Assembly: GCA_029009515.1 (NCBI GenBank)
Contig: JAQXJZ010000109.1
Span: 4,066-68,065, forward strand
DNA from: a bacterium
GTDB lineage: Bacteria; Bacillota; Clostridia; Christensenellales; Aristaeellaceae
Direction: 5' to 3'
Length of the DNA: 64,000 nt
Shown: one piece after another, positions 1-62,611 of the stretch
Position numbering within the stretch: the stretch's first letter is position 1
Layout of the letters: each line of letters opens with the position of its first letter
Position numbers and translations under genes: made by a program
The notes under the pieces: model-generated
The model's database searches: none
What the model saw: only the letters and a program-made list of their open reading frames with translations
What the model was told of the DNA's origin: nothing

Positions 1-393
1 CTGTGCCAGAAGACCGAGGCCGGACTGAATGCCAAAACCGGTCTTGCGCTGGACGTGCTGGACCGCCACACCGGCAAGCTGCGCGACGTGGGCACGCTGT
101 CCGGCGGCGAATCCTTCCTGGCGTCGCTTTCGCTGGCGCTGGGCTTTGCCGATGCGGTGCAGGCGCAGAAGGGCGGCGTGCAGCTGGAGACGCTGTTTAT
201 CGACGAGGGCTTCGGCTCATTGGATGACGACAGCCTGCGCCGCGCCCTGGAAGTACTGAACGAGCTGGCCGGCGGCAAGCGCCTCATTGGCGTCATCTCC
301 CACGTGCCCATGCTCAAGGCCAGCATCTCCAAAAAGATTCTGGTGGAGCGCAAACGCCCCTGCGGCAGCGGCGTGCGCATCGTAGAAGAGTAA
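1..393 (+). CDS. sbcC: SbcC/Rad50-family nuclease ATPase, C-terminal end (5' part outside window)
   Basis: Frame 1 is open from nt 1. Translation carries the SMC/ABC signature LSGGE, Walker B/D-loop LFIDEGFGSLD and H-loop ISHV, which is the canonical SbcC C-terminus. Confidence 0.8.
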   Translation: MCQKTEAGLNAKTGLALDVLDRHTGKLRDVGTLSGGESFLASLSLALGFADAVQAQKGGVQLETLFIDEGFGSLDDDSLRRALEVLNELAGGKRLIGVISHVPMLKASISKKILVERKRPCGSGVRIVEE

Positions 394-394
394 C

Positions 395-430
395 AAAAAA
401 GCAGCTGATGCGTAATCAGCTGCTTCTTTT
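395..430. terminator. Bidirectional rho-independent terminator between convergent sbcC and plsY
   Basis: 9-bp stem GCAGCTGAT/ATCAGCTGC (401-423) with a 5-nt loop, flanked by A6 on the left and TTCTTTT on the right. Confidence 0.75.
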
Positions 431-16715: not shown

Positions 16716-17942
16716 ATGAAAAAGCTCATTTCTCTGGTACTGGCCCTCATGATGGTGCTGGGCATGACCGCGGCTGTGGCCGAACCCGTCACCCTTACCT
16801 ACGCTCACTTCTCCGGCTCCGGCGTGCAGGAGGAAGTGCTGAACAAGATGATCGACGTATTTGAAAGCAAGAACCCCGATATCAAGATCGACCTGCAGAT
16901 CACCGGCTTTGAAGATTACTTCACCAAGCTGGCCACCGTCATCGGCGGCGGCAATGCGCCCGACGTGTTCGAAATGAACATGGAAAACTTCCTGGCCTAC
17001 ATGCTGCGCGGCGCCTGCGCCGACCTGACCGGCCTGGTGGATACCGCCAACTACTCCGAAGGCACCCTGGCCGCCGTCAGCTCCGATGGCAAGCTGTACG
17101 CCGTGCCCATGAGCTTCTCCACCTGCCTGCTGTTCTACAACAAGGATCTGTTTGATCAGGCTGGCGTGGAATATCCCAACGACAGCTGGACCTGGGCCGA
17201 TATCCAGGCCGCGGCTGAAAAGATCAAGGCGCTGGGCGACGACATCTGGGGCATTTACCAGCCCATCACCTACAACGAGTTCTACAAGTCCGTCAAGGGC
17301 AACGGCGGCAGCCTGCTCACCCCCGACTACTCCGCCTTCACCCTCAACTCCGCCGAGAACGTGGAAGTGCTGGACGCCATGATCAAGCGCGTGCGCGGCG
17401 AAGAGCGCGTGATGCCCACCACCGAGGACATGGCCGGCCGCGGCGACTGGGATCTGTTCCAGGAGGGCAAGCTGGGCATGTGCATCACCGGCATCTGGGC
17501 CTTCCCCACCTTCACCGAGAAGTGCCCCTTCGGCTGGGATGTGGTGGTCGAGCCCGGCTACGAGACCAAGTCCACCTTCTTCTTTGCCAACGTCAACTGC
17601 GTGTCTCCCTCCTCTGACAAGAAGGAAGCCGCTGCCAAGTTCATCGACGCCATGGGCTCCGACCCCGACATCGTGCAGCTGCGTCTGGACGCCAGCTGGG
17701 AGCTGCCCACCATCGCCGACCAGTCCAAGCTGACCCAGTACCTCGAGGTCACTCCTCCCGCCAACCGCAAGGCCGTGTTTGACAGCATGGACTTCGCCGC
17801 CGCTCCTCCCGCTCTCCTCGAGCAGGGCGCCGTGAGCGAGATCATCAACAACGTCCTCAGCACCCTCGAGATGGACGACCTGTCCGCTCAGGAAGCGCTG
17901 GACGAGATCCAGGCTCAGCTGGAAGACGCGGATCTCCTGTAA
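16716..17942 (+). CDS. Extracellular sugar-binding protein (ABC SBP)
   Basis: Signal peptide MKKLISLVLALMMVLGMTAAVA and family-1 SBP-like sequence. AAGGAGG lies 8 nt upstream. Confidence 0.88.
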   Translation: MKKLISLVLALMMVLGMTAAVAEPVTLTYAHFSGSGVQEEVLNKMIDVFESKNPDIKIDLQITGFEDYFTKLATVIGGGNAPDVFEMNMENFLAYMLRGACADLTGLVDTANYSEGTLAAVSSDGKLYAVPMSFSTCLLFYNKDLFDQAGVEYPNDSWTWADIQAAAEKIKALGDDIWGIYQPITYNEFYKSVKGNGGSLLTPDYSAFTLNSAENVEVLDAMIKRVRGEERVMPTTEDMAGRGDWDLFQEGKLGMCITGIWAFPTFTEKCPFGWDVVVEPGYETKSTFFFANVNCVSPSSDKKEAAAKFIDAMGSDPDIVQLRLDASWELPTIADQSKLTQYLEVTPPANRKAVFDSMDFAAAPPALLEQGAVSEIINNVLSTLEMDDLSAQEALDEIQAQLEDADLL

Positions 17943-18070
17943 GGGGCTGAGCCCCTTAACCCGCTCTCCGAGGCCATGAAATGGCCTCGGGGGGGTGGCG
18001 CAAAAGTTTATGGCTGCATCTAAGACCGCCGGGGCACATACGGGTGCCCCGGCTCGCTTGTCGGTATTGC
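17943..18070 (+). repeat. Hairpin-mosaic element copy A: hairpin 1, hairpin 2 and 59-nt conserved core
   Basis: GGGGC-tga-GCCCC (17943-17955). CCGAGGCCAT-gaa-ATGGCCTCGG (17968-17990). Core 18012-18070 matches the reverse complement of 53817-53875 at 55 of 59 nt and contains a 10-bp hairpin (18028-18053). Confidence 0.85.
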
Positions 18071-18188
18071 TCTTCTTGTTTGTTGGCTGCGTCAGACCGC
18101 CGGTCGGCGGAAGGCCTCCCGGCTCGCGTTCGTTCAAAATGGCAAGTCAACTTCCAGTACCGCATGGCTATTTCATGAGCGAAGCGAG

Positions 18189-18220
18189 CTTCATTCCTTC
18201 ATTCCTTCATTCCTTCATTC
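18189..18220 (+). repeat. Perfect tandem octamer (CTTCATTC)x4
   Basis: Four head-to-tail identical copies read directly from the sequence. They end 5 nt before the AAAGGAG Shine-Dalgarno of the next gene. Confidence 0.95.
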
Positions 18221-18237
18221 TCCGAAAGGAGCCTACT

Positions 18238-20022
18238 ATGCCAGTCTATCAAATCACCGGCAACGAATACCTCTCCCTTCCCGCTATCCGCGAATCAGAC
18301 GGCGCGGTGGAATCCATCAGCTTTCTGTACATGCAGCTCAAGGGTATGCTGGAGGTGACCGGCACACCTGCGCTCATTGCACCATACATTCAATGCGGCG
18401 CAAAACGTCTGCCTCTCAATCCCGTGTGGGAGCGGCAGCACTGCTGGATTCCCAGCTTCACCAGCGTTTCGGATGGTTTCTCCTTCCGCTGCACCTATCT
18501 GTCCCCTGTTGGCGAGCGCGGCTTCGGCATGCGTCTGGAAGCTGAGAATCAAAGCGCCACGGCTGCGTCCGTCGCCATCGGCCTGGACGGCGAATGGACA
18601 CAGACCCTGCACACCGTCAACGAAAGCATTCCGCTTGCTTCCGACCGCATGGTGAAAGCATCCGGCTGGAACCACATGTTTGTATTCCAGCAGGTTCCCG
18701 GCCTGCCGCTGATGGCCTTTGCGCCCATTGTGGGCGATGATCAGCCCTTCAGCGAGATCGATCAGGGCGCGGAGTGGTCGCAGCATGATTTCTCCTACGA
18801 TATTCACAAGACCACCGTGCTGCAGCCCGGCCAGCGCATGCAGCTGGACGTGTTCTGGGGCGTGGGCTACGAGGAAGTGGCTGCCTCCACCTCCGCCAAG
18901 GAAATGCTGCGGCAGGGCTTTGATGCGCTTTATGCGCGCGCCTGCGGCTGGCTGAGCGAGCGCGAACGGCGCAGCGGCGATGAGAGAATTGACGAGCTGC
19001 TCAACACCAACCTGTTCTTTGCGTTCTTCTATGCCTCCGGCCGCACGGTGGATACGGAGGAACTGTGCATGATGACCTCGCGCAGCCCGCGCTACTATGT
19101 GTCCGCCGCCTACTGGGACCGCGACAGCCTGCTGTGGGCATTTCCGGCCATTGTGCAGGCGGATCATGCCTATGCGCGCGAATTGCTGCTTTCCGTTTTC
19201 CAGCGTCAGGGGCGCAATTTCGGCGTCCACAGCCGCTTCATCGACGGCACGGTGCTGGAGCCGGGCTTTGAGCTGGACGAGCTTTGCGCACCGGTGATCG
19301 CGCTGGAGCGGTATGTGGCCATCACGGGCGATCCGTCCATTCTGAACAACGCTCTGATCCGCGACAGGCTGGAAAGCATCCTGCAAAAGCTGCGCATGCA
19401 GCGGCATCCGACCGCTGCACTGTACGCCACCTTCCTGCAGCCGACGGATGATCTGCACCGCTATCCCTACCTGACGTACGACAATGTGCTGGTGTGGCGC
19501 GCGCTCCGCTGTTTGGGGGAATGGCTGAACCGGTCGGACTGTCTGGCGGAAGCCGAAGCGGTGCACGCGGCCATCCTTGAGCACTGCGTGTTTGCGCACG
19601 AAGGAAAGCGTATTTTCGCCTGGTCGGTGGATCTGTGCGGGCAATGGGACATCTACGACGAGCCTCCGGGAAGCCTGCAGCTGCTGCCCTTCTACGGCTT
19701 CTGCCCGATGGAGGACGAGGTGTGGCGCAATACCACCGCGCTCATCCGCAGTCCGTCCTACGGGCTTTCCTTCGCCAACCACCCCATTGCGGAAATCGGC
19801 TGCAAGCACGCGCCGCATCCGTGGGTGCTGTCCATGTGCAACAGCCTCATCAGCGGCCACGCACAGGAGGCGCTTGATCATCTGCGGCTGACGACCATGG
19901 ACAACGGCGTGGCCTGCGAAAGCGTGCACGAGGACACCGGCGTGTGCACCACCGGCGCGGCTTTTGCCACCTGTGCAGGTTTTCTGGCATTTGCCCTGCT
20001 GGAAGCGCTCGCCAGTTGTTGA
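18238..20022 (+). CDS. (alpha/alpha)6-barrel glycoside hydrolase-like protein, GH125 (DUF1237)-like signature, with N-terminal extra domain
   Basis: YWDRDS, FELDELCAPVIAL, LQPTDD, YDEPPGSLQLLPFYGF and GCKHAPHPW parallel remembered GH125 motifs (WLRDS, YELDSLC, PND, DDANxPSLLxLPYLG, GxGSPHT). Start set at ATG 18238 after AAAGGAG; the upstream part of the track ORF is repeat DNA. Confidence 0.55.
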   Translation: MPVYQITGNEYLSLPAIRESDGAVESISFLYMQLKGMLEVTGTPALIAPYIQCGAKRLPLNPVWERQHCWIPSFTSVSDGFSFRCTYLSPVGERGFGMRLEAENQSATAASVAIGLDGEWTQTLHTVNESIPLASDRMVKASGWNHMFVFQQVPGLPLMAFAPIVGDDQPFSEIDQGAEWSQHDFSYDIHKTTVLQPGQRMQLDVFWGVGYEEVAASTSAKEMLRQGFDALYARACGWLSERERRSGDERIDELLNTNLFFAFFYASGRTVDTEELCMMTSRSPRYYVSAAYWDRDSLLWAFPAIVQADHAYARELLLSVFQRQGRNFGVHSRFIDGTVLEPGFELDELCAPVIALERYVAITGDPSILNNALIRDRLESILQKLRMQRHPTAALYATFLQPTDDLHRYPYLTYDNVLVWRALRCLGEWLNRSDCLAEAEAVHAAILEHCVFAHEGKRIFAWSVDLCGQWDIYDEPPGSLQLLPFYGFCPMEDEVWRNTTALIRSPSYGLSFANHPIAEIGCKHAPHPWVLSMCNSLISGHAQEALDHLRLTTMDNGVACESVHEDTGVCTTGAAFATCAGFLAFALLEALASC

Positions 20023-26166: not shown

Positions 26167-26230
26167 GCCCAGAGCACTTCCTTTGACGAATGCTGGTCTT
26201 TATTGTAGCAGGAAACGGCTCCTGAAACAA

Positions 26231-26263
26231 GCAAAACACCCCGCTTCATGCAGGGTGTTTTGC
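26231..26263 (-). terminator. Terminator after the flavodoxin-like gene
   Basis: GCAAAACACCC/GGGTGTTTTGC 11-bp stem with an 11-nt loop, and a T-rich tail on the minus strand. Confidence 0.6.
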
Positions 26264-33620: not shown

Positions 33621-33667
33621 GATTTTGTTCTGCGGAACAAAATCAACAGGGGCGCGGTGCGTGCGCC
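33621..33667 (+). promoter_or_regulatory. Candidate oriT: 10-bp perfect inverted repeat plus GTGCGTGCGCC
   Basis: GATTTTGTTC-tgcg-GAACAAAATC (33621-33644), followed 14 nt later by GTGCGTGCGCC (33658-33668). The layout resembles the RSF1010/MobQ oriT (inverted repeat, then TAAGTGCGCCCT). Confidence 0.4.
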
Positions 33668-33698
33668 AGCAAGCTGGCTACCCAAGGAAAGTGGGGTG

Positions 33699-35214
33699 AT
33701 GACGGTGGCGTGTCCTCACTTTGATGTGTCCATCCGCCAGCGCAGCAAGGGACAATCCGCCGTGGCGGGTGCTGCCTGTATGTCCGCTGAAAAGCTGTTC
33801 AGCGAGTACGACCAGCGGACGAAGAATTTCTGCTACAAAGAAAAAGAAATCGTGGCAAAGGGAATCCTGCTGCCGCCCAACGCGCCATGGGAATATGCTG
33901 ATCGGCAGACGCTCTGGAATGCCGTCGAAGCATCCGAAAAGCAATGGAACGCACAGCTGGCGAGAGGTATCATTATGGCGCTGCCGAGGGAGCTTCCTGC
34001 CAACCAATATGAGGCCCTCGTCCGCGAATACTGCATGGAACAATTCGTGTCCCGTGGCATGATCGCCGACTACGCCATTCATGATAAGGGCGACGGCAAT
34101 CCGCATGCCCATGTGATGCTGACCATGCGTGCAATGGACGAGCATGGCAAGTGGCTACCCAAGGGAAAACGTGTCTGCGTGCTGGATGAAAACGGCGAGC
34201 GGATTAAGCTGCTCAGCGGTGACTATAAATCCTACAAGGTACGCACCACGGATTGGGACGATCCTGGCAATTGTGAGCGGTGGCGTACCACATGGGCCGA
34301 CACCACAAATCGTTATCTGGAACGTGCCGGAGAAGACGTTCGGCTTGATCTCCGTTCATACGAGAGGCAGGGAGTTGATCTGGTTCCCACCGTCCACATG
34401 GGACCTGTTGTTACCTACCTGGAACAGCAGGCATCCGCACAGAAATTGGCCAGTACAACGAGGAAATCAGACAATTCAACCGTGTGCTGCAATCGTTGAA
34501 GTCACGGCTGGAATCGCTAAAAAAGTGGCTGGCAGATGCTATCCGCAAAACAGCAGAAATCATGAAGCCGGAGCCATACCAACCTTCGCTGATGGAATAC
34601 ATTCAGGTGTTCCAGAATTTTCGCAGGGCTGGGCGTGCGGACTGGGGCAAGAAGGCAAGGCAGACTGCTGGTATCAACGACCTGGAATTCGCAGCACAAG
34701 TACAGTTCTTCATGCAGGAAGCTGGTATCAGCACGCTGCAGGATTTCGATGGATTTGTTGGCAAACAGCAAGAAAGCCTTACCCAGCTTGACGGCGTGGG
34801 CAAGGCGATTCGGAAAAAGCAAACGGCACTCAAGCATCTGGAGACATTTCAGCGACTCAAGCCAATCTCTGATAAGAGTAAGCGCGGCATGGGATTTGTT
34901 CGGAAACAGTATGCTGAAAAACACCAGCAGGAGCTGCACGAGTTTGCAAAGGCTGTGCGGTACATGAATGCATCGCCAGTGAATTGCAGCAGCTGCCGGA
35001 GGAACAGTCTCAGCTTTGTGCAGCACTCGCGGAACAGAATGTTGATCCTGATCTGATTGATCGTATTCGTTACTGTGTTGATACGGTCATCAAAGCTGGC
35101 GAGGAACCGAGGCAGAGGGAGTCAATCAGGGCGCAGCTGCAAATTGCAAAGGCGCAGCAGAGCAGAACAGTAGCGCAACAGACAAATTTGGAACCTTACG
35201 CCGACATATTGTGA
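33699..35214 (+). pseudogene. MobA/MobL (MobQ-type) relaxase pseudogene
   Basis: N-terminal relaxase fold with HDKGDGNPHAHVM (HxDxxxPHxH). The expected catalytic Tyr in AAAYRS is Cys (GAACMSAE). The frame breaks near 34428 (frame 3 to 2, restoring GIRTEIGQYNEEIRQFN) and near 34960-34975 (frame 2 to 1). Confidence 0.8.
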
Positions 35215-51381: not shown

Positions 51382-51383
51382 TC

Positions 51384-51439
51384 AGGGATTGAGTCCCTCA
51401 ACCCACTTGCCGAGGCCATTGAATGGCCTCGGTTTTTTT
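51384..51439 (+). repeat. Two-hairpin module of the mosaic family, doubling as the rubrerythrin terminator
   Basis: AGGGAT-tga-GTCCCT (51384-51398). Linker CAACCCACTTG. CCGAGGCCAT-tga-ATGGCCTCGG (51410-51432) followed by T7. Collinear with 17943-17990. Confidence 0.85.
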
Positions 51440-51527
51440 GTATGCGGATTCGGTATTGACGGATGGAGGCTTTCCTGTTAGTATTCATTCTCGGTGTCAT
51501 ATTTACATTCAGAAAGAAGGAAAACCA

Positions 51528-53637: not shown

Positions 53638-53658
53638 GATGTTCTCCCTTCGGTCGAA

Positions 53659-53739
53659 GTGAAGTGCGCCTTCGGCGCGTGAAGTTCGCCTGCGGCGGTG
53701 AAGTGTGCCTGCGGCATGTGAAGTTTCCTGCTGCGCAGG
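53659..53739 (-). repeat. Four phased GTGAAGT-plus-hairpin units (19-20-nt period) in the SDR 5' leader
   Basis: GTGAAGT at 53659, 53679, 53698 and 53718. Each is followed by a small hairpin with a different stem (GCGCC/GGCGC, CGCC/GGCG, TGCC/GGCA, CCTGC/GCAGG). Degenerate copies lie on both flanks. Confidence 0.9.
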
Positions 53740-53816
53740 AAGATTTGGTTAGCTGTGCGGTAACATGCTATCTTTATTGTAGCATCAGCCCACCCATAAA
53801 TCAACCAGCAAGGAAT

Positions 53817-53971
53817 GCAATACCATCAATCGAGCCGGGGCACCCGTATGTGCCCCGGCGGTCTTAGTTGCAGCCCTACCCATACACAAACACCGTGCAC
53901 CTTTCAGGTGCACGGTGTGCGGGGTGCAGGGGGCTCAGCCCCCTGCCGGGATCCAAGGGCAGAGCCCTTGG
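53817..53971 (-). repeat. Hairpin-mosaic element copy B (inverted relative to copy A)
   Basis: 59-nt core (53817-53875). 12-bp hairpin ACACCGTGCACC/GGTGCACGGTGT (53890-53918). GCAGGGGGC-tca-GCCCCCTGC (53926-53946). CCAAGGGC-aga-GCCCTTGG (53953-53971). Confidence 0.85.
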
Positions 53972-58880: not shown

Positions 58881-58929
58881 GTTCTACTTCCTTCTTGTTC
58901 CTCTGCCTGTCTATAATGGTTCGTTTTGT

Positions 58930-58958
58930 ATTGTAGCACGGTTCTGCGCACTTCGCAA
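58930..58958 (-). promoter_or_regulatory. Promoter upstream of purC
   Basis: Minus strand reads TTGCGA, 17 nt, TACAAT with an upstream TG. It leaves a leader of about 45 nt. Confidence 0.5.
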
Positions 58959-59099
58959 GCAATTGCATGCATCGTTCGCATTTGCATCTTTCCCGCGAGC
59001 CAGCCCGCTTTGGACGCCCCTTTTCTGCCAAAAATCAACATATGACAGACTGTTTACAGAAAAAACAAAGAACCGTCATGATAACTGTTCAAAAAATGC

Positions 59100-62494: not shown

Positions 62495-62495
62495 C

Positions 62496-62572
62496 GCAGG
62501 GCGCTGCCCTGCACCCGCTTAAGGGCTTTGCCCTTAAGAATCCCGTGGATTGGCCTCGCTTTGCGAGGCCAA
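62496..62572 (+). repeat. Triple-hairpin mosaic (shuffled modules of the same family)
   Basis: GCAGGGC-gct-GCCCTGC (62496-62512). CTTAAGGGC-ttt-GCCCTTAAG (62518-62538). TTGGCCTCGC-ttt-GCGAGGCCAA (62550-62572). Linkers ACCCGC and AATCCCG echo those of copy B. Confidence 0.8.
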
Positions 62573-62611
62573 AGGGAGACTATCTATTGTTTTCTAAGTA
62601 AGGTGTTTGTA

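What the first reader, a model, noticed from the sequence alone, without database searches (positions are those of the whole stretch)
17943..18225. Copy A of a ~0.3-kb modular intercistronic element (inverted partner at 53641-53971)
The 295-nt gap between the SBP stop (17942) and the GH125-like start (18238) is built from discrete modules. In order they are: hairpin 1 GGGGC-tga-GCCCC; hairpin 2 CCGAGGCCAT-gaa-ATGGCCTCGG; a 59-nt core (18012-18070) holding a 10-bp hairpin; a variable spacer; (CTTCATTC)x4; and the SD. The reverse complement of 53817-53875 matches the core at 55 of 59 positions, and the module order is the same there. Both copies sit between co-directional genes and face the same way relative to transcription. 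No coding feature explains this. It recalls enterobacterial REP/BIME mosaics, which I do not know to be described for this kind of genome.
Basis: seen in the sequence. Interest (0 to 1): 0.7.

Follow-up and report, generated by a model that had tools for sequence, protein, structure and literature searches.

The report
Mosaic hairpin repeats between gut-bacterium genes
The gap between a sugar-binding-protein gene and the next gene in an uncultured pig-gut Clostridia bacterium is filled with short hairpin repeats that recur at other gene ends, a new family of a familiar kind of bacterial repeat (like REP/BIME in E. coli or BOX/SPRITE in pneumococcus).

Summary

It is not one 0.3-kb element. It is a mosaic of parts that behave differently:
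- Hairpin 1 and the core are dispersed multi-copy repeats. Their depth in gut metagenomes is 5-25x and 12-48x the local single-copy depth.
- Hairpin 2 and the CTTCAY array are locus-specific.

The core is a 10-bp hairpin with a variable apex between conserved flanks (AAGACCGCC ... GGCTCGCTTG). Across 15 units, 7 of its 10 pairs show compensatory changes.

The mosaic sits between a stop codon and, where one is present, the real terminator. It usually faces the same way as the upstream gene. It is present or absent at orthologous junctions in relatives.

In one metatranscriptome, RNA contig depth falls 3-7 fold across both copies.

No Rfam family matches the core. The partner copy's array scores just under threshold for the orphan motif Gut-1, on the opposite strand.

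My best reading is a REP/BOX/SPRITE-like repeat family transcribed in 3' UTRs, acting as an attenuator or mRNA-end stabiliser. It is a new member of a known kind, of moderate interest.

The parts
17940..17958 (+). Hairpin 1 (h1): TAAGGGGC-tga-GCCCCTTA. The SBP stop codon TAA forms the base of the stem. It is followed by AACCC (17959-17963).
   Evidence: The h1 family pattern occurs 4 times against 0.06 expected. Depth is 4-6x the local flank in metagenomes.
17968..17990 (+). Hairpin 2 (h2): CCGAGGCCAT-gaa-ATGGCCTCGG, followed by a G-run and a GT-rich spacer up to 18011. The same stem at 51410-51432 is followed by T7, which makes it a true terminator there.
   Evidence: The ortholog L049 keeps the hairpin with one compensatory change (A-T to C-G), one C-G to T.G wobble and a longer apex.
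18012..18070 (+). Core unit 1. Its flanks are GGCTGCATCTAAGACCGCC and GGCTCGCTTG. The 10-bp hairpin is at 18028-18053, with loop ATACGG.
   Evidence: Depth is 12-48x the single-copy flank.
18071..18093 (+). Linker between core units (TCTTCTTGTTTGTTGGCTGCGTC). It recurs between tandem cores in other contigs.
   Evidence: Loose ends, and L049 and L061.
18094..18127 (+). Core unit 2, a degenerate subtype: AGACCGCC-GGTCGGC-GGAAG-GCCTCC-CGGCTCGC, with a purine-rich loop.
   Evidence: Scores 49.5 bits with model R1. Many contigs match only 18092-18127.
18146..18220 (+). CTTCAY array: about two degenerate ~20-nt units, then (CTTCATTC)x4 at 18189-18220.
   Evidence: The repeat number differs in L049.
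18220..18240 (+). CUCC-GAAA-GGAG mini-hairpin over the SD (18225-18231), and the ATG of the GH125-like gene (18238).
   Evidence: The hairpin is in the MFE fold but is weak, z = -0.7.
53926..53971 (-). Partner copy: h1a CCAAGGGC-tct-GCCCTTGG (53953-53971) and h1b GCAGGGGGC-tga-GCCCCCTGC + ACCCC (53926-53946). They start 11 nt after the lactonase stop.
   Evidence: Depth is 5-25x. There is a local resemblance to the reverse complement of Rfam Clostridiales-2 (18.6 bits).
53890..53918 (-). Partner copy h2: ACACCGTGCACCT-gaa-AGGTGCACGGTGT, followed by a GT-rich spacer.
   Evidence: Depth is close to single-copy.
53817..53875 (-). Partner copy core unit 1, with its hairpin at 53834-53859.
53776..53804 (-). 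Promoter-like site TTGATT-17-TGcTACAAT (extended -10). It is conserved in ortholog L061.
53657..53741 (-). Array of 4-5 units of ~20 nt, each CTTCAC plus a GC hairpin with a GNA triloop, just upstream of the SD (53644-53650) and the GTG start (53637) of the SDR gene. Read on the + strand it is a near-threshold Gut-1 match.
51382..51440 (+). A h1-h2 mosaic without a core, after the rubrerythrin gene. Here h2 plus T7 forms an intrinsic terminator.
62495..62575 (+). Two h1-type hairpins followed by h2 (h1-h1'-h2), with no core, after the RF1 (prfA) gene.

Best explanation
The gap is a pile-up of lineage-specific interspersed palindromic repeat modules. They lodge in the 3' untranslated region of the upstream gene, between its stop codon and, where one exists, its true terminator.

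Two modules are dispersed repeats:
- h1, consensus CARGGG(G)C-N3-G(C)CCCYTG-(C)ACCC.
- The core, an imperfect palindrome with conserved flanks AAGACCGCC / GGCTCGCTTG around a hairpin whose apex varies. It is often found as a tandem dimer.

h2 is the locus's own terminator-type hairpin.

The modules are transcribed with the upstream gene. I infer that they act there as stable RNA stem-loops that stop or slow RNA polymerase and 3' exonucleases. The SBP (or lactonase) message would then be more abundant than the message of the next gene. This is the role shown for REP sequences in the malE-malF gap of E. coli.

Shown here:
- The repetition and the modularity.
- Conservation of the hairpin through compensatory changes.
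- Placement and orientation relative to genes.
- Presence or absence among relatives.
- Presence in RNA libraries, and a drop in RNA contig depth across both copies.

Inferred:
- The attenuator/stabiliser effect.
- The way the repeats spread (transposition or gene conversion).
For: Repetition:
- An exact 37-mer is shared by the two copies; 0 matches in shuffles.
- Further units occur in MAG RGIG7318 (L001-L003), in JAEIGA01 contigs (L007, L033, L036), in IMG/VR contigs L057/L059, and in L049 and L061.
- Many metagenome and metatranscriptome contigs match only the core or only h1, with unrelated flanks. Core depth is 12-48x and h1 depth 5-25x the local unique depth.

Structure:
- In 15 units the 10-bp helix is 96.7% paired, and 7 pairs show changes on both sides. 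0 of 500 shuffles reach this, and slid controls give 23-55% paired.
- The ortholog L049 has G-C to A-T in the core and a compensatory change in h2.

Placement:
- h1 starts 0-20 nt after the stop, or holds the stop codon in its loop (SecA in L001, and L033).
- In L002 and L061 the order is stop - h1 - h2 - core(s) - canonical terminator.
- The core follows a co-oriented upstream gene at 6 independent loci.

Turnover:
- The SBP junction carries the mosaic in the window and in L048-L050.
- It carries only a core-like hairpin in L037/L051.
- It carries a plain 63-nt terminator gap in L038/L039 and L042-L047.
- The SbcC 3' end is plain in the window but mosaic in L002.
- Every lineage keeps some strong GC hairpin directly after the SBP gene.

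RNA:
- In metatranscriptome X25 one contig runs from the SBP gene through h1 and h2 into the core.
- Depth is 11.6 over SBP against 0-4.8 over the GH125-like gene, and 40.4 over the lactonase against 5.9 over the SDR and 0 over the gap.
Against: - The RNA evidence is contig-level, unstranded, from one metatranscriptome, and may include DNA. Contigs also break at repeats for assembly reasons.
- The core has no U-tract, and the terminator scan does not call it. In copy A the T-run after h2 is replaced by a G-run.
- None of the 26 compensatory cells has a G-U intermediate. That fits DNA-level palindrome maintenance at least as well as RNA selection.
- Two loci (L001b, and L057/L059) carry the mosaic antisense to, or diverging from, the neighbouring genes.
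- Where a canonical terminator follows, an extra stabiliser looks redundant. The repeats may simply be tolerated there.
- The copy number per genome was not counted directly.
Confidence: 0.55

Rival explanations
1. The repeats are purely selfish or neutral miniature mobile DNA (MITE/REPIN-like). They are spread by a transposase encoded elsewhere (for example an IS200/RAYT-type HUH enzyme) or by gene conversion, and they collect after stop codons only because insertions are tolerated there. They have no role for the host.
For: - Presence or absence at orthologous sites.
- Near-identical copies 36 kb apart.
- Contigs of relatives end at the repeats.
- Only Watson-Crick compensatory changes, with no G-U intermediates.
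- Nested insertion inside an h1 loop in L001b.
- Canonical GTAG-tagged REPs lie next to cores in L003, L033 and L057/L059, so a REP-mobilising system probably exists in that lineage.
- Pneumococcal RUP, BOX and SPRITE show the same bias for sites downstream of genes (PMC3049150).
Against: - No transposase was found in the window.
- No target-site duplication or clean empty site could be defined.
- The core and h1 lack the GTAG/CGTC tag.
- There is a strong bias for the orientation of the upstream gene rather than of replication. Copies A and B are opposite on one replichore, and GC skew is monotonic.
- Hairpins are kept by compensatory change over ~14% nucleotide divergence.
- This reading is not exclusive of the best explanation.
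Confidence: 0.3
2. It is a dedicated cis-regulatory RNA of the sugar operon, such as an antiterminator target, a riboswitch or a protein-binding leader, that controls the GH125-like gene.
For: - It lies inside an operon-like row of genes (LacI, GH31, GH65, two permeases, SBP, GH125-like, GlgA).
- The core loop (A and G invariant) and its flanks are conserved.
- The pyrimidine-rich CTTCAY repeats can pair with the SD.
Against: - The same modules follow unrelated genes: lactonase, rubrerythrin, RF1, SecA, SbcC and a RecA-like gene.
- The element is absent from the same junction in close relatives.
- No Rfam match.
- The SD hairpins are no better than shuffled sequence, z from -0.1 to -1.5.
Confidence: 0.07
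3. The functional strand is the opposite one. The mosaic would encode antisense small RNAs, as suggested by the Gut-1 match and by the resemblance to Clostridiales-2, both on the strand opposite to the genes.
For: - Gut-1 scores 45.7 bits, E = 5e-8, on the + strand at 53657-53729. The conserved U...G flanks add a wobble pair only on that strand.
- Clostridiales-2's first hairpin resembles the reverse complement of h1b plus CACCCC.
- In the Gut-1 seed alignment the arrays occur in both orientations next to each other.
Against: - Both scores are below the Rfam thresholds.
- Copy A and the other loci give no such hit.
- RNA contig depth over the array is 0-3.6.
- The promoter-like site points along the gene strand.
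- The core has no match on either strand.
Confidence: 0.08

Closest known systems
REP / BIME elements of enterobacteria and pseudomonads
   Same: - Short GC-rich imperfect palindromes, many copies, extragenic, mostly downstream of genes, and combined into mosaics.
- They can supply or abut stop codons (PMC3733652).
- In malE-malF they stabilise the upstream binding-protein message (established knowledge, not tested here).
   Different: - No GTAG or CGTC tag.
- Units are in direct, not alternating, orientation.
- The apex of the core hairpin varies while the flanks are fixed.
- No RAYT was seen.
- The host is a Clostridia lineage, which is not mentioned in the main text of the REP survey I searched.
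BOX elements of Streptococcus pneumoniae (boxA-boxB(n)-boxC)
   Same: - A modular interspersed repeat of a Firmicute, with a variable number of internal modules.
- Folds into stem-loops.
- Is co-transcribed with neighbouring genes and affects them (PMC3049150).
   Different: - No sequence relation was looked for or seen.
- BOX has terminal inverted repeats and target duplications, which I could not show here.
- BOX is AT-richer and is not tied to stop codons.
[quoted passage not shown]
   Same: A repeat family that looks like a terminator hairpin. It is enriched close to the 3' ends of genes, and its authors thought it was co-opted as a terminator (PMC3049150).
   Different: SPRITE is a single 18-bp duplex plus a U-rich tract. 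Here there are several distinct hairpins, and the core lacks a U-tract.
Rfam Gut-1 RNA motif (RF01706)
   Same: Tandem ~20-nt units made of a conserved heptamer (GUGAAAU/GUGAAGU) plus a short GC hairpin. It is known only from gut metagenomes and has no known function (PMC2864571).
   Different: - Concerns only the array of the partner copy, not the core.
- Scores 45.7 bits against a threshold of 50.
- Lies on the strand opposite to the flanking genes.
- In copy A the hairpins are lost and only the CTTCATTC words remain.
Rfam Clostridiales-2 RNA motif (RF02937)
   Same: The first hairpin and its flanks (GGGGGUG-CAGGGG...CCCCUG-CCG) read like the reverse complement of h1b plus CACCCC.
   Different: 18.6 bits against a threshold of 58.6. 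The 33-nt middle part is missing, and no other h1 copy gives a hit.

Membership tests
REP/BIME | Short (20-40 nt) GC-rich imperfect palindrome, present in many extragenic copies | tested here: met
   The core is a 35-37-nt imperfect palindrome. There are 15 units in the held sequences. Depth is 12-48x single-copy in metagenomes. The copy number per genome was not counted directly.
REP/BIME | GTAG (or CGTC) tetranucleotide tag at one end | tested here: not met
   Neither the core nor h1 has the tag on either strand. Separate GTAG-tagged REPs exist in L003, L033 and L057/L059, but none in the window.
REP/BIME | BIME architecture: REPs in alternating orientation with set linkers | tested here: not met
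   All modules and tandem cores are in direct orientation.
REP/BIME | Associated RAYT (HUH tyrosine transposase) in the genome | not testable with these tools
   None among the window's genes. The whole genome is not available.
Rfam Gut-1 (RF01706) | Covariance-model score at or above the gathering score (50 bits) | tested here: not met
   45.7 bits, E = 5e-8, full-length match at 53657-53729 on +. No hit in copy A.
Rfam Clostridiales-2 (RF02937) | Covariance-model score at or above the gathering score (58.6 bits) | tested here: not met
   18.6 bits. Only the first hairpin aligns.
Intrinsic (Rho-independent) terminator | GC-rich hairpin directly followed by a U-run | tested here: not met
   The core hairpin is followed by CTCGCTTG. 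The scan reports only a 5-bp alternative. h2 of copy A is followed by G7. The same h2 at 51410-51432 is followed by T7 and does qualify.
MITE | Terminal inverted repeats and a target-site duplication, with filled and empty sites | tested here: inconclusive
   Filled and empty orthologous sites exist, but they have diverged too far to define ends or duplications.
BOX-type modular repeat | Ordered modules, with the internal module in variable copy number | tested here: met
   The order h1(1-2) - h2 - core(1-2) is kept at 8 or more loci. This is an architectural likeness only; sequence relation to BOX was not tested.

The most novel reading that the evidence does not exclude
The mosaic is an RNA-level system for punctuating operons. 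It would have three parts:
- h1 hairpins that embed the stop codon and modulate termination or ribosome release.
- Core hairpins, with fixed flanks and loop bases, that are bound by a dedicated protein.
- The pyrimidine-rich CUUCAY arrays, which act as anti-SD mimics gating translation of the next cistron. These arrays are the Gut-1 family, read on the strand opposite to Rfam's annotation.

This would give the orphan Gut-1 motif its first biological context. The evidence does not exclude it. The core and the array co-occur in the only two gaps of the window that have either one, which I estimate at about 1 in 600 by chance. An SD-pairing CUCC or CUUCG precedes the SD at four loci. The folds, however, are no better than shuffled sequence.
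Probability: 0.1. Interest if true: 0.7.

Novelty: new member of a known kind. Interest (0 to 1): 0.4.

Why it matters
- Interspersed palindromic repeats are well described in Proteobacteria and in pneumococcus. I found no description of them for high-GC gut Clostridia (a Christensenellaceae-like lineage).
- These repeats break metagenome assemblies: contigs end at them.
- They differ between close strains.
- They appear to set the relative expression of neighbouring genes in carbohydrate operons.
- They give a genomic context to the orphan Gut-1 motif.
- A covariance model of the core and of h1 would improve annotation of many animal-gut MAGs.

Tried and rejected
- **Rfam, gathering threshold, whole window:** only two tRNAs.
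- **Rfam, E-value mode, copy A and seven related loci:** nothing relevant.
- **Genome collection scan for the core:** only one MAG.
- **Metagenome scan:** 33 hits, of which 30 are chance matches inside GC-rich soil coding genes.
- **Viral contigs:** 2 real hits (the same sequence twice) and 2 chance hits. The h1 pattern gave none.
- **BLAST against plasmids and phages:** no match.
- **Exact-protein look-ups of the window's SBP and GH125-like proteins:** not on record.
- **Core model R1 over 210 kb of related sequence:** no unit beyond the training set, except a 21-bit relic at the orthologous junction of L037/L051.
- **Core as terminator:** rejected, because there is no U-run.
- **N-terminal extension of the GH125-like protein:** the ORF 17995-20022 runs in frame through the core and would give a lipoprotein-like signal. 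Rejected, because orthologs start at the ATG and the gap length in L049 differs by 22 nt, so the frame is not kept.
- **Integron attC, ANTAR hexaloop pair and RAT sites:** considered from memory and dropped, because the conserved bases do not fit. These were not tested formally.
- **Strand choice from G-U pairs:** too few cases, and they contradict each other.
- **Supplement of the 2017 motif paper (for Clostridiales-2):** not held.

Full report
**1. The observation**

- Hairpin 1 (h1) is longer than described. The stop codon is part of the stem (TAAGGGGC-tga-GCCCCTTA, 17940-17958).
- The 59-nt core matches the reverse complement of 53817-53875 at 55/59.
- The repeat finder extends this match to 77 nt at 87%.
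- A 37-mer is shared exactly, against zero matches in 100 shuffles.
- The partner copy lies between a lactonase gene and a short-chain dehydrogenase (SDR) gene on the minus strand. It has the same module order and the same orientation relative to the genes.
- The two highest-scoring tandem repeats in the whole window are (CTTCATTC)x4 at 18189-18220 and a 19-20-nt repeat at 53659-53735.
- Clusters of CTTCAY occur only in these two gaps.

**2.

- A second, degenerate core unit follows the first (18094-18127: AGACCGCC...GGCTCGC with a GGAAG loop).
- Two more h1-h2 mosaics lack a core. One follows the rubrerythrin gene (51382-51440) and one follows the RF1 gene (62495-62575).
- The rubrerythrin copy has the same h2 stem as copy A. 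It is followed by T7, so it is a normal terminator there. In copy A the T-run is a G-run.
- h1-type palindromes occur 4 times against 0.06 expected.

**3. Where else the modules occur**

The window comes from an uncultured Clostridia bacterium of pig and sheep guts. Near-identical DNA is found in such metagenomes, and homologs are named "Clostridia bacterium" or "Christensenellaceae bacterium".

Scans with the core pattern gave the following:
- The species-representative genome collection gave only one MAG, RGIG7318 from buffalo caecum, with three matching loci.
- JGI metagenomes gave three real contigs among 33 hits.
- IMG/VR gave one sequence, present twice.
- A wider pattern and the fetched relatives raised the total to 15 distinct units.

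Laying Logan contigs of gut metagenomes and metatranscriptomes on the gap shows many contigs that match only the core, only the second core unit, or only h1, each with unrelated flanks. Summed depth relative to the local single-copy depth:

| Module | Depth relative to single copy |
|---|---|
| Core | 12-48x |
| h1 | 5-25x |
| h2 | ~1x |
| Promoter region | ~1x |
| CTTCAY array | ~1x |

So the 0.3-kb stretch is not one repeated element. It is a mosaic of two dispersed repeat families around locus-specific parts.

**4. Anatomy of the core**

- All units share the flanks (C)TAAGACCGCC and GGCTCGCTTG.
- Between the flanks is a 10-bp hairpin whose upper part differs from unit to unit. Examples are GGGGCAC/GTGCCCC, GGGGCAA/TTGCCCC, GGGGCCA/TGGCCCC, GGAGGCA/TGCCTCC, TGAGCAA/TTGCTCA, TGAGGTC/GACCTCA and GTGACAC/GTGTCAC.
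- The loops are of two kinds, ATACRG or purine-rich GGARG.
- Across the 15 units the helix is 96.7% paired, and 7 of 10 pairs have changes on both sides. No shuffle reaches these values, and slid controls give 23-55% paired.
- Not one of the 26 changed cells is a G-U intermediate. That fits maintenance of a DNA palindrome at least as well as selection on RNA.
- The flanks pair only partly (AAG/CTT around an ACC/TCG internal loop), which gives the unit a direction.
- Tandem dimers joined by a conserved linker (..TTGACGGTAYGCTTCTTCTTGTTTGTTGG..) recur: in copy A, L049, L061, L033, L001 and many loose ends.

**5. Placement**

- h1 begins 0-20 nt after the stop codon at every locus where the upstream gene is known.
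- In two cases the stop codon lies in the h1 loop: SecA in L001 (...GGC AGG GGC TGA) and a gene in L033.
- Where a canonical terminator exists, the order is stop - h1 - h2 - core(s) - terminator. L002 (after SbcC) and L061 (the ortholog of the partner copy) both show this. The mosaic is therefore inside the 3' UTR of the upstream gene.
- The core follows a co-oriented gene at six independent loci.
- Two loci are exceptions. L001b is antisense between two genes, and L057/L059 lies next to a diverging gene.
- Copies A and B are opposite to each other on a stretch with monotonic GC skew. Orientation therefore follows transcription, not replication.

**6. Turnover among relatives**

The state of the SBP-to-GH125 junction varies:

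| Loci | State of the junction |
|---|---|
| Window, L048, L049/L050 | Full mosaic |
| L037/L051 | One core-like hairpin plus a T-rich tail (21 bits with model R1) |
| L038/L039, L042-L047 | Plain 63-nt terminator gap |

- L049/L050 is about 86% identical in DNA over the operon. It shows G-C to A-T in the core, and in h2 one compensatory change (A-T to C-G), one C-G to T.G wobble and a longer apex.
- Conversely, the SbcC 3' end is plain in the window (393-430) but mosaic in L002.
- In the partner copy the window has lost the second core and the terminator that L061 still has. L061 has gained two small ORFs between the promoter and the array.
- Contigs carrying the lactonase gene are short, and contigs carrying the cores often end at the repeats.
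- This is the behaviour of mobile or recombining repeats, not of a conserved regulatory leader.
- Even so, every lineage keeps some strong GC hairpin right after the SBP gene.

**7. Expression**

In metatranscriptome X25:
- One contig runs from the SBP gene through h1 and h2 into the core.
- Contig depth is 11.6 over SBP and 0-4.8 over the GH125-like gene.
- Depth is 40.4 over the lactonase, 5.9 over the SDR, and 0 over the gap in between.

This is what an attenuator or a stabiliser of the upstream message would give. The data are unstranded contigs from one sample, however, and contigs also break at repeats for assembly reasons.

**8. Comparison with known families**

- Rfam at gathering thresholds finds only two tRNAs. 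Copy A and seven related loci have no relevant hit in E-value mode.
- In the partner copy, the array read on the plus strand (antisense to the genes) matches Gut-1 (RF01706) end to end at 45.7 bits, with a threshold of 50 and E = 5e-8.
- Gut-1 is an orphan motif known only from human gut metagenomes (PMC2864571). Its seed alignment shows arrays in both orientations side by side.
- h1b plus CACCCC resembles the reverse complement of the first hairpin of Clostridiales-2 (18.6 bits against 58.6).
- The REP features were tested. The size, the palindrome and the copy number fit. The GTAG/CGTC tag and the alternating BIME arrangement do not.
- No transposase lies in the window.
- True GTAG-tagged REPs sit beside cores in L003, L033 and L057/L059, but not in the window.
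- The nearest Firmicute analogues are pneumococcal BOX (modular, with a variable internal module) and SPRITE (a terminator-like repeat at gene ends) (PMC3049150).
- No similar DNA exists in the plasmid or phage collections.

**9. Verdict**

- It is best read as a new family of interspersed palindromic repeat modules of an animal-gut Clostridia lineage. The modules are transcribed in 3' UTRs and probably act as attenuators or mRNA-end stabilisers at operon junctions (confidence about 0.55).
- A purely selfish-DNA reading is the main rival, and it is compatible with the first.
- Two things remain unexplained. One is the link between the core and the CTTCAY (Gut-1-like) arrays next to the following gene's ribosome-binding site. 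The other is how the repeats spread.

Noticed in passing
window 53657-53741 (and 18146-18220): CTTCAY arrays sit directly upstream of the SD of the next gene, in the only two gaps that also hold a core. Read on the opposite strand, the partner's array is a near-threshold Rfam Gut-1 match. The pyrimidine words (CUUC, CUCC) can pair with the SD (GAAGG, GGAG) at four loci, but the folds are no better than shuffled sequence.
   Followed up: partly
L003 253-280; L033 ~160-193 (-); L057 604-681; L059 3089-3166: Canonical GTAG-tagged REPs (GTAGGGGCGAC-N5-GTCGCCC) lie within ~30-150 nt of core units in the RGIG7318-like genomes. In L057/L059 they form an inverted REPIN-like pair. There are none in the window.
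   Followed up: partly
window 33657-35056: A MobA/MobL-family relaxase gene (E = 4e-82) and an unknown ORF lie in a lower-GC stretch among sugar-utilisation genes. A 10-bp AT-rich hairpin at 33621-33644 sits just upstream. This may be a remnant of a mobilisable element with its oriT.
   Followed up: no
L061 3607-4164: In the ortholog of the partner gap, two small ORFs (81 aa on -, 73 aa on +) are inserted between the conserved promoter and the CTTCAC array. They are absent from the window.
   Followed up: no
window 26197-26233, 53771-53807, 58925-58961 (minus strand): A shared TGCTACAATAAAGA word, which is an extended -10 promoter, recurs upstream of three minus-strand genes (family D2).
   Followed up: no
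L001 5905-6010: An h1 hairpin is split by a 47-nt insertion in its loop. The insertion carries its own hairpin and a word (GCTCACCGCAGGTGTGCC) that is repeated 150 nt downstream. This is nesting of yet another repeat family.
   Followed up: no
window 17995-20022: An ORF runs in frame from a GTG at 17995 through both core units into the GH125-like gene. It would encode a lipoprotein-like signal (..LLFLFVGC..). I judged this to be chance, because the orthologs start at the ATG and the frame is not kept in L049.
   Followed up: yes
L040 and L041 1-2972: More distant relatives carry a type II-A CRISPR-Cas locus (Cas9, Cas1, Cas2, Csn2) upstream of the same sugar operon. It is absent from the window.
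   Followed up: no
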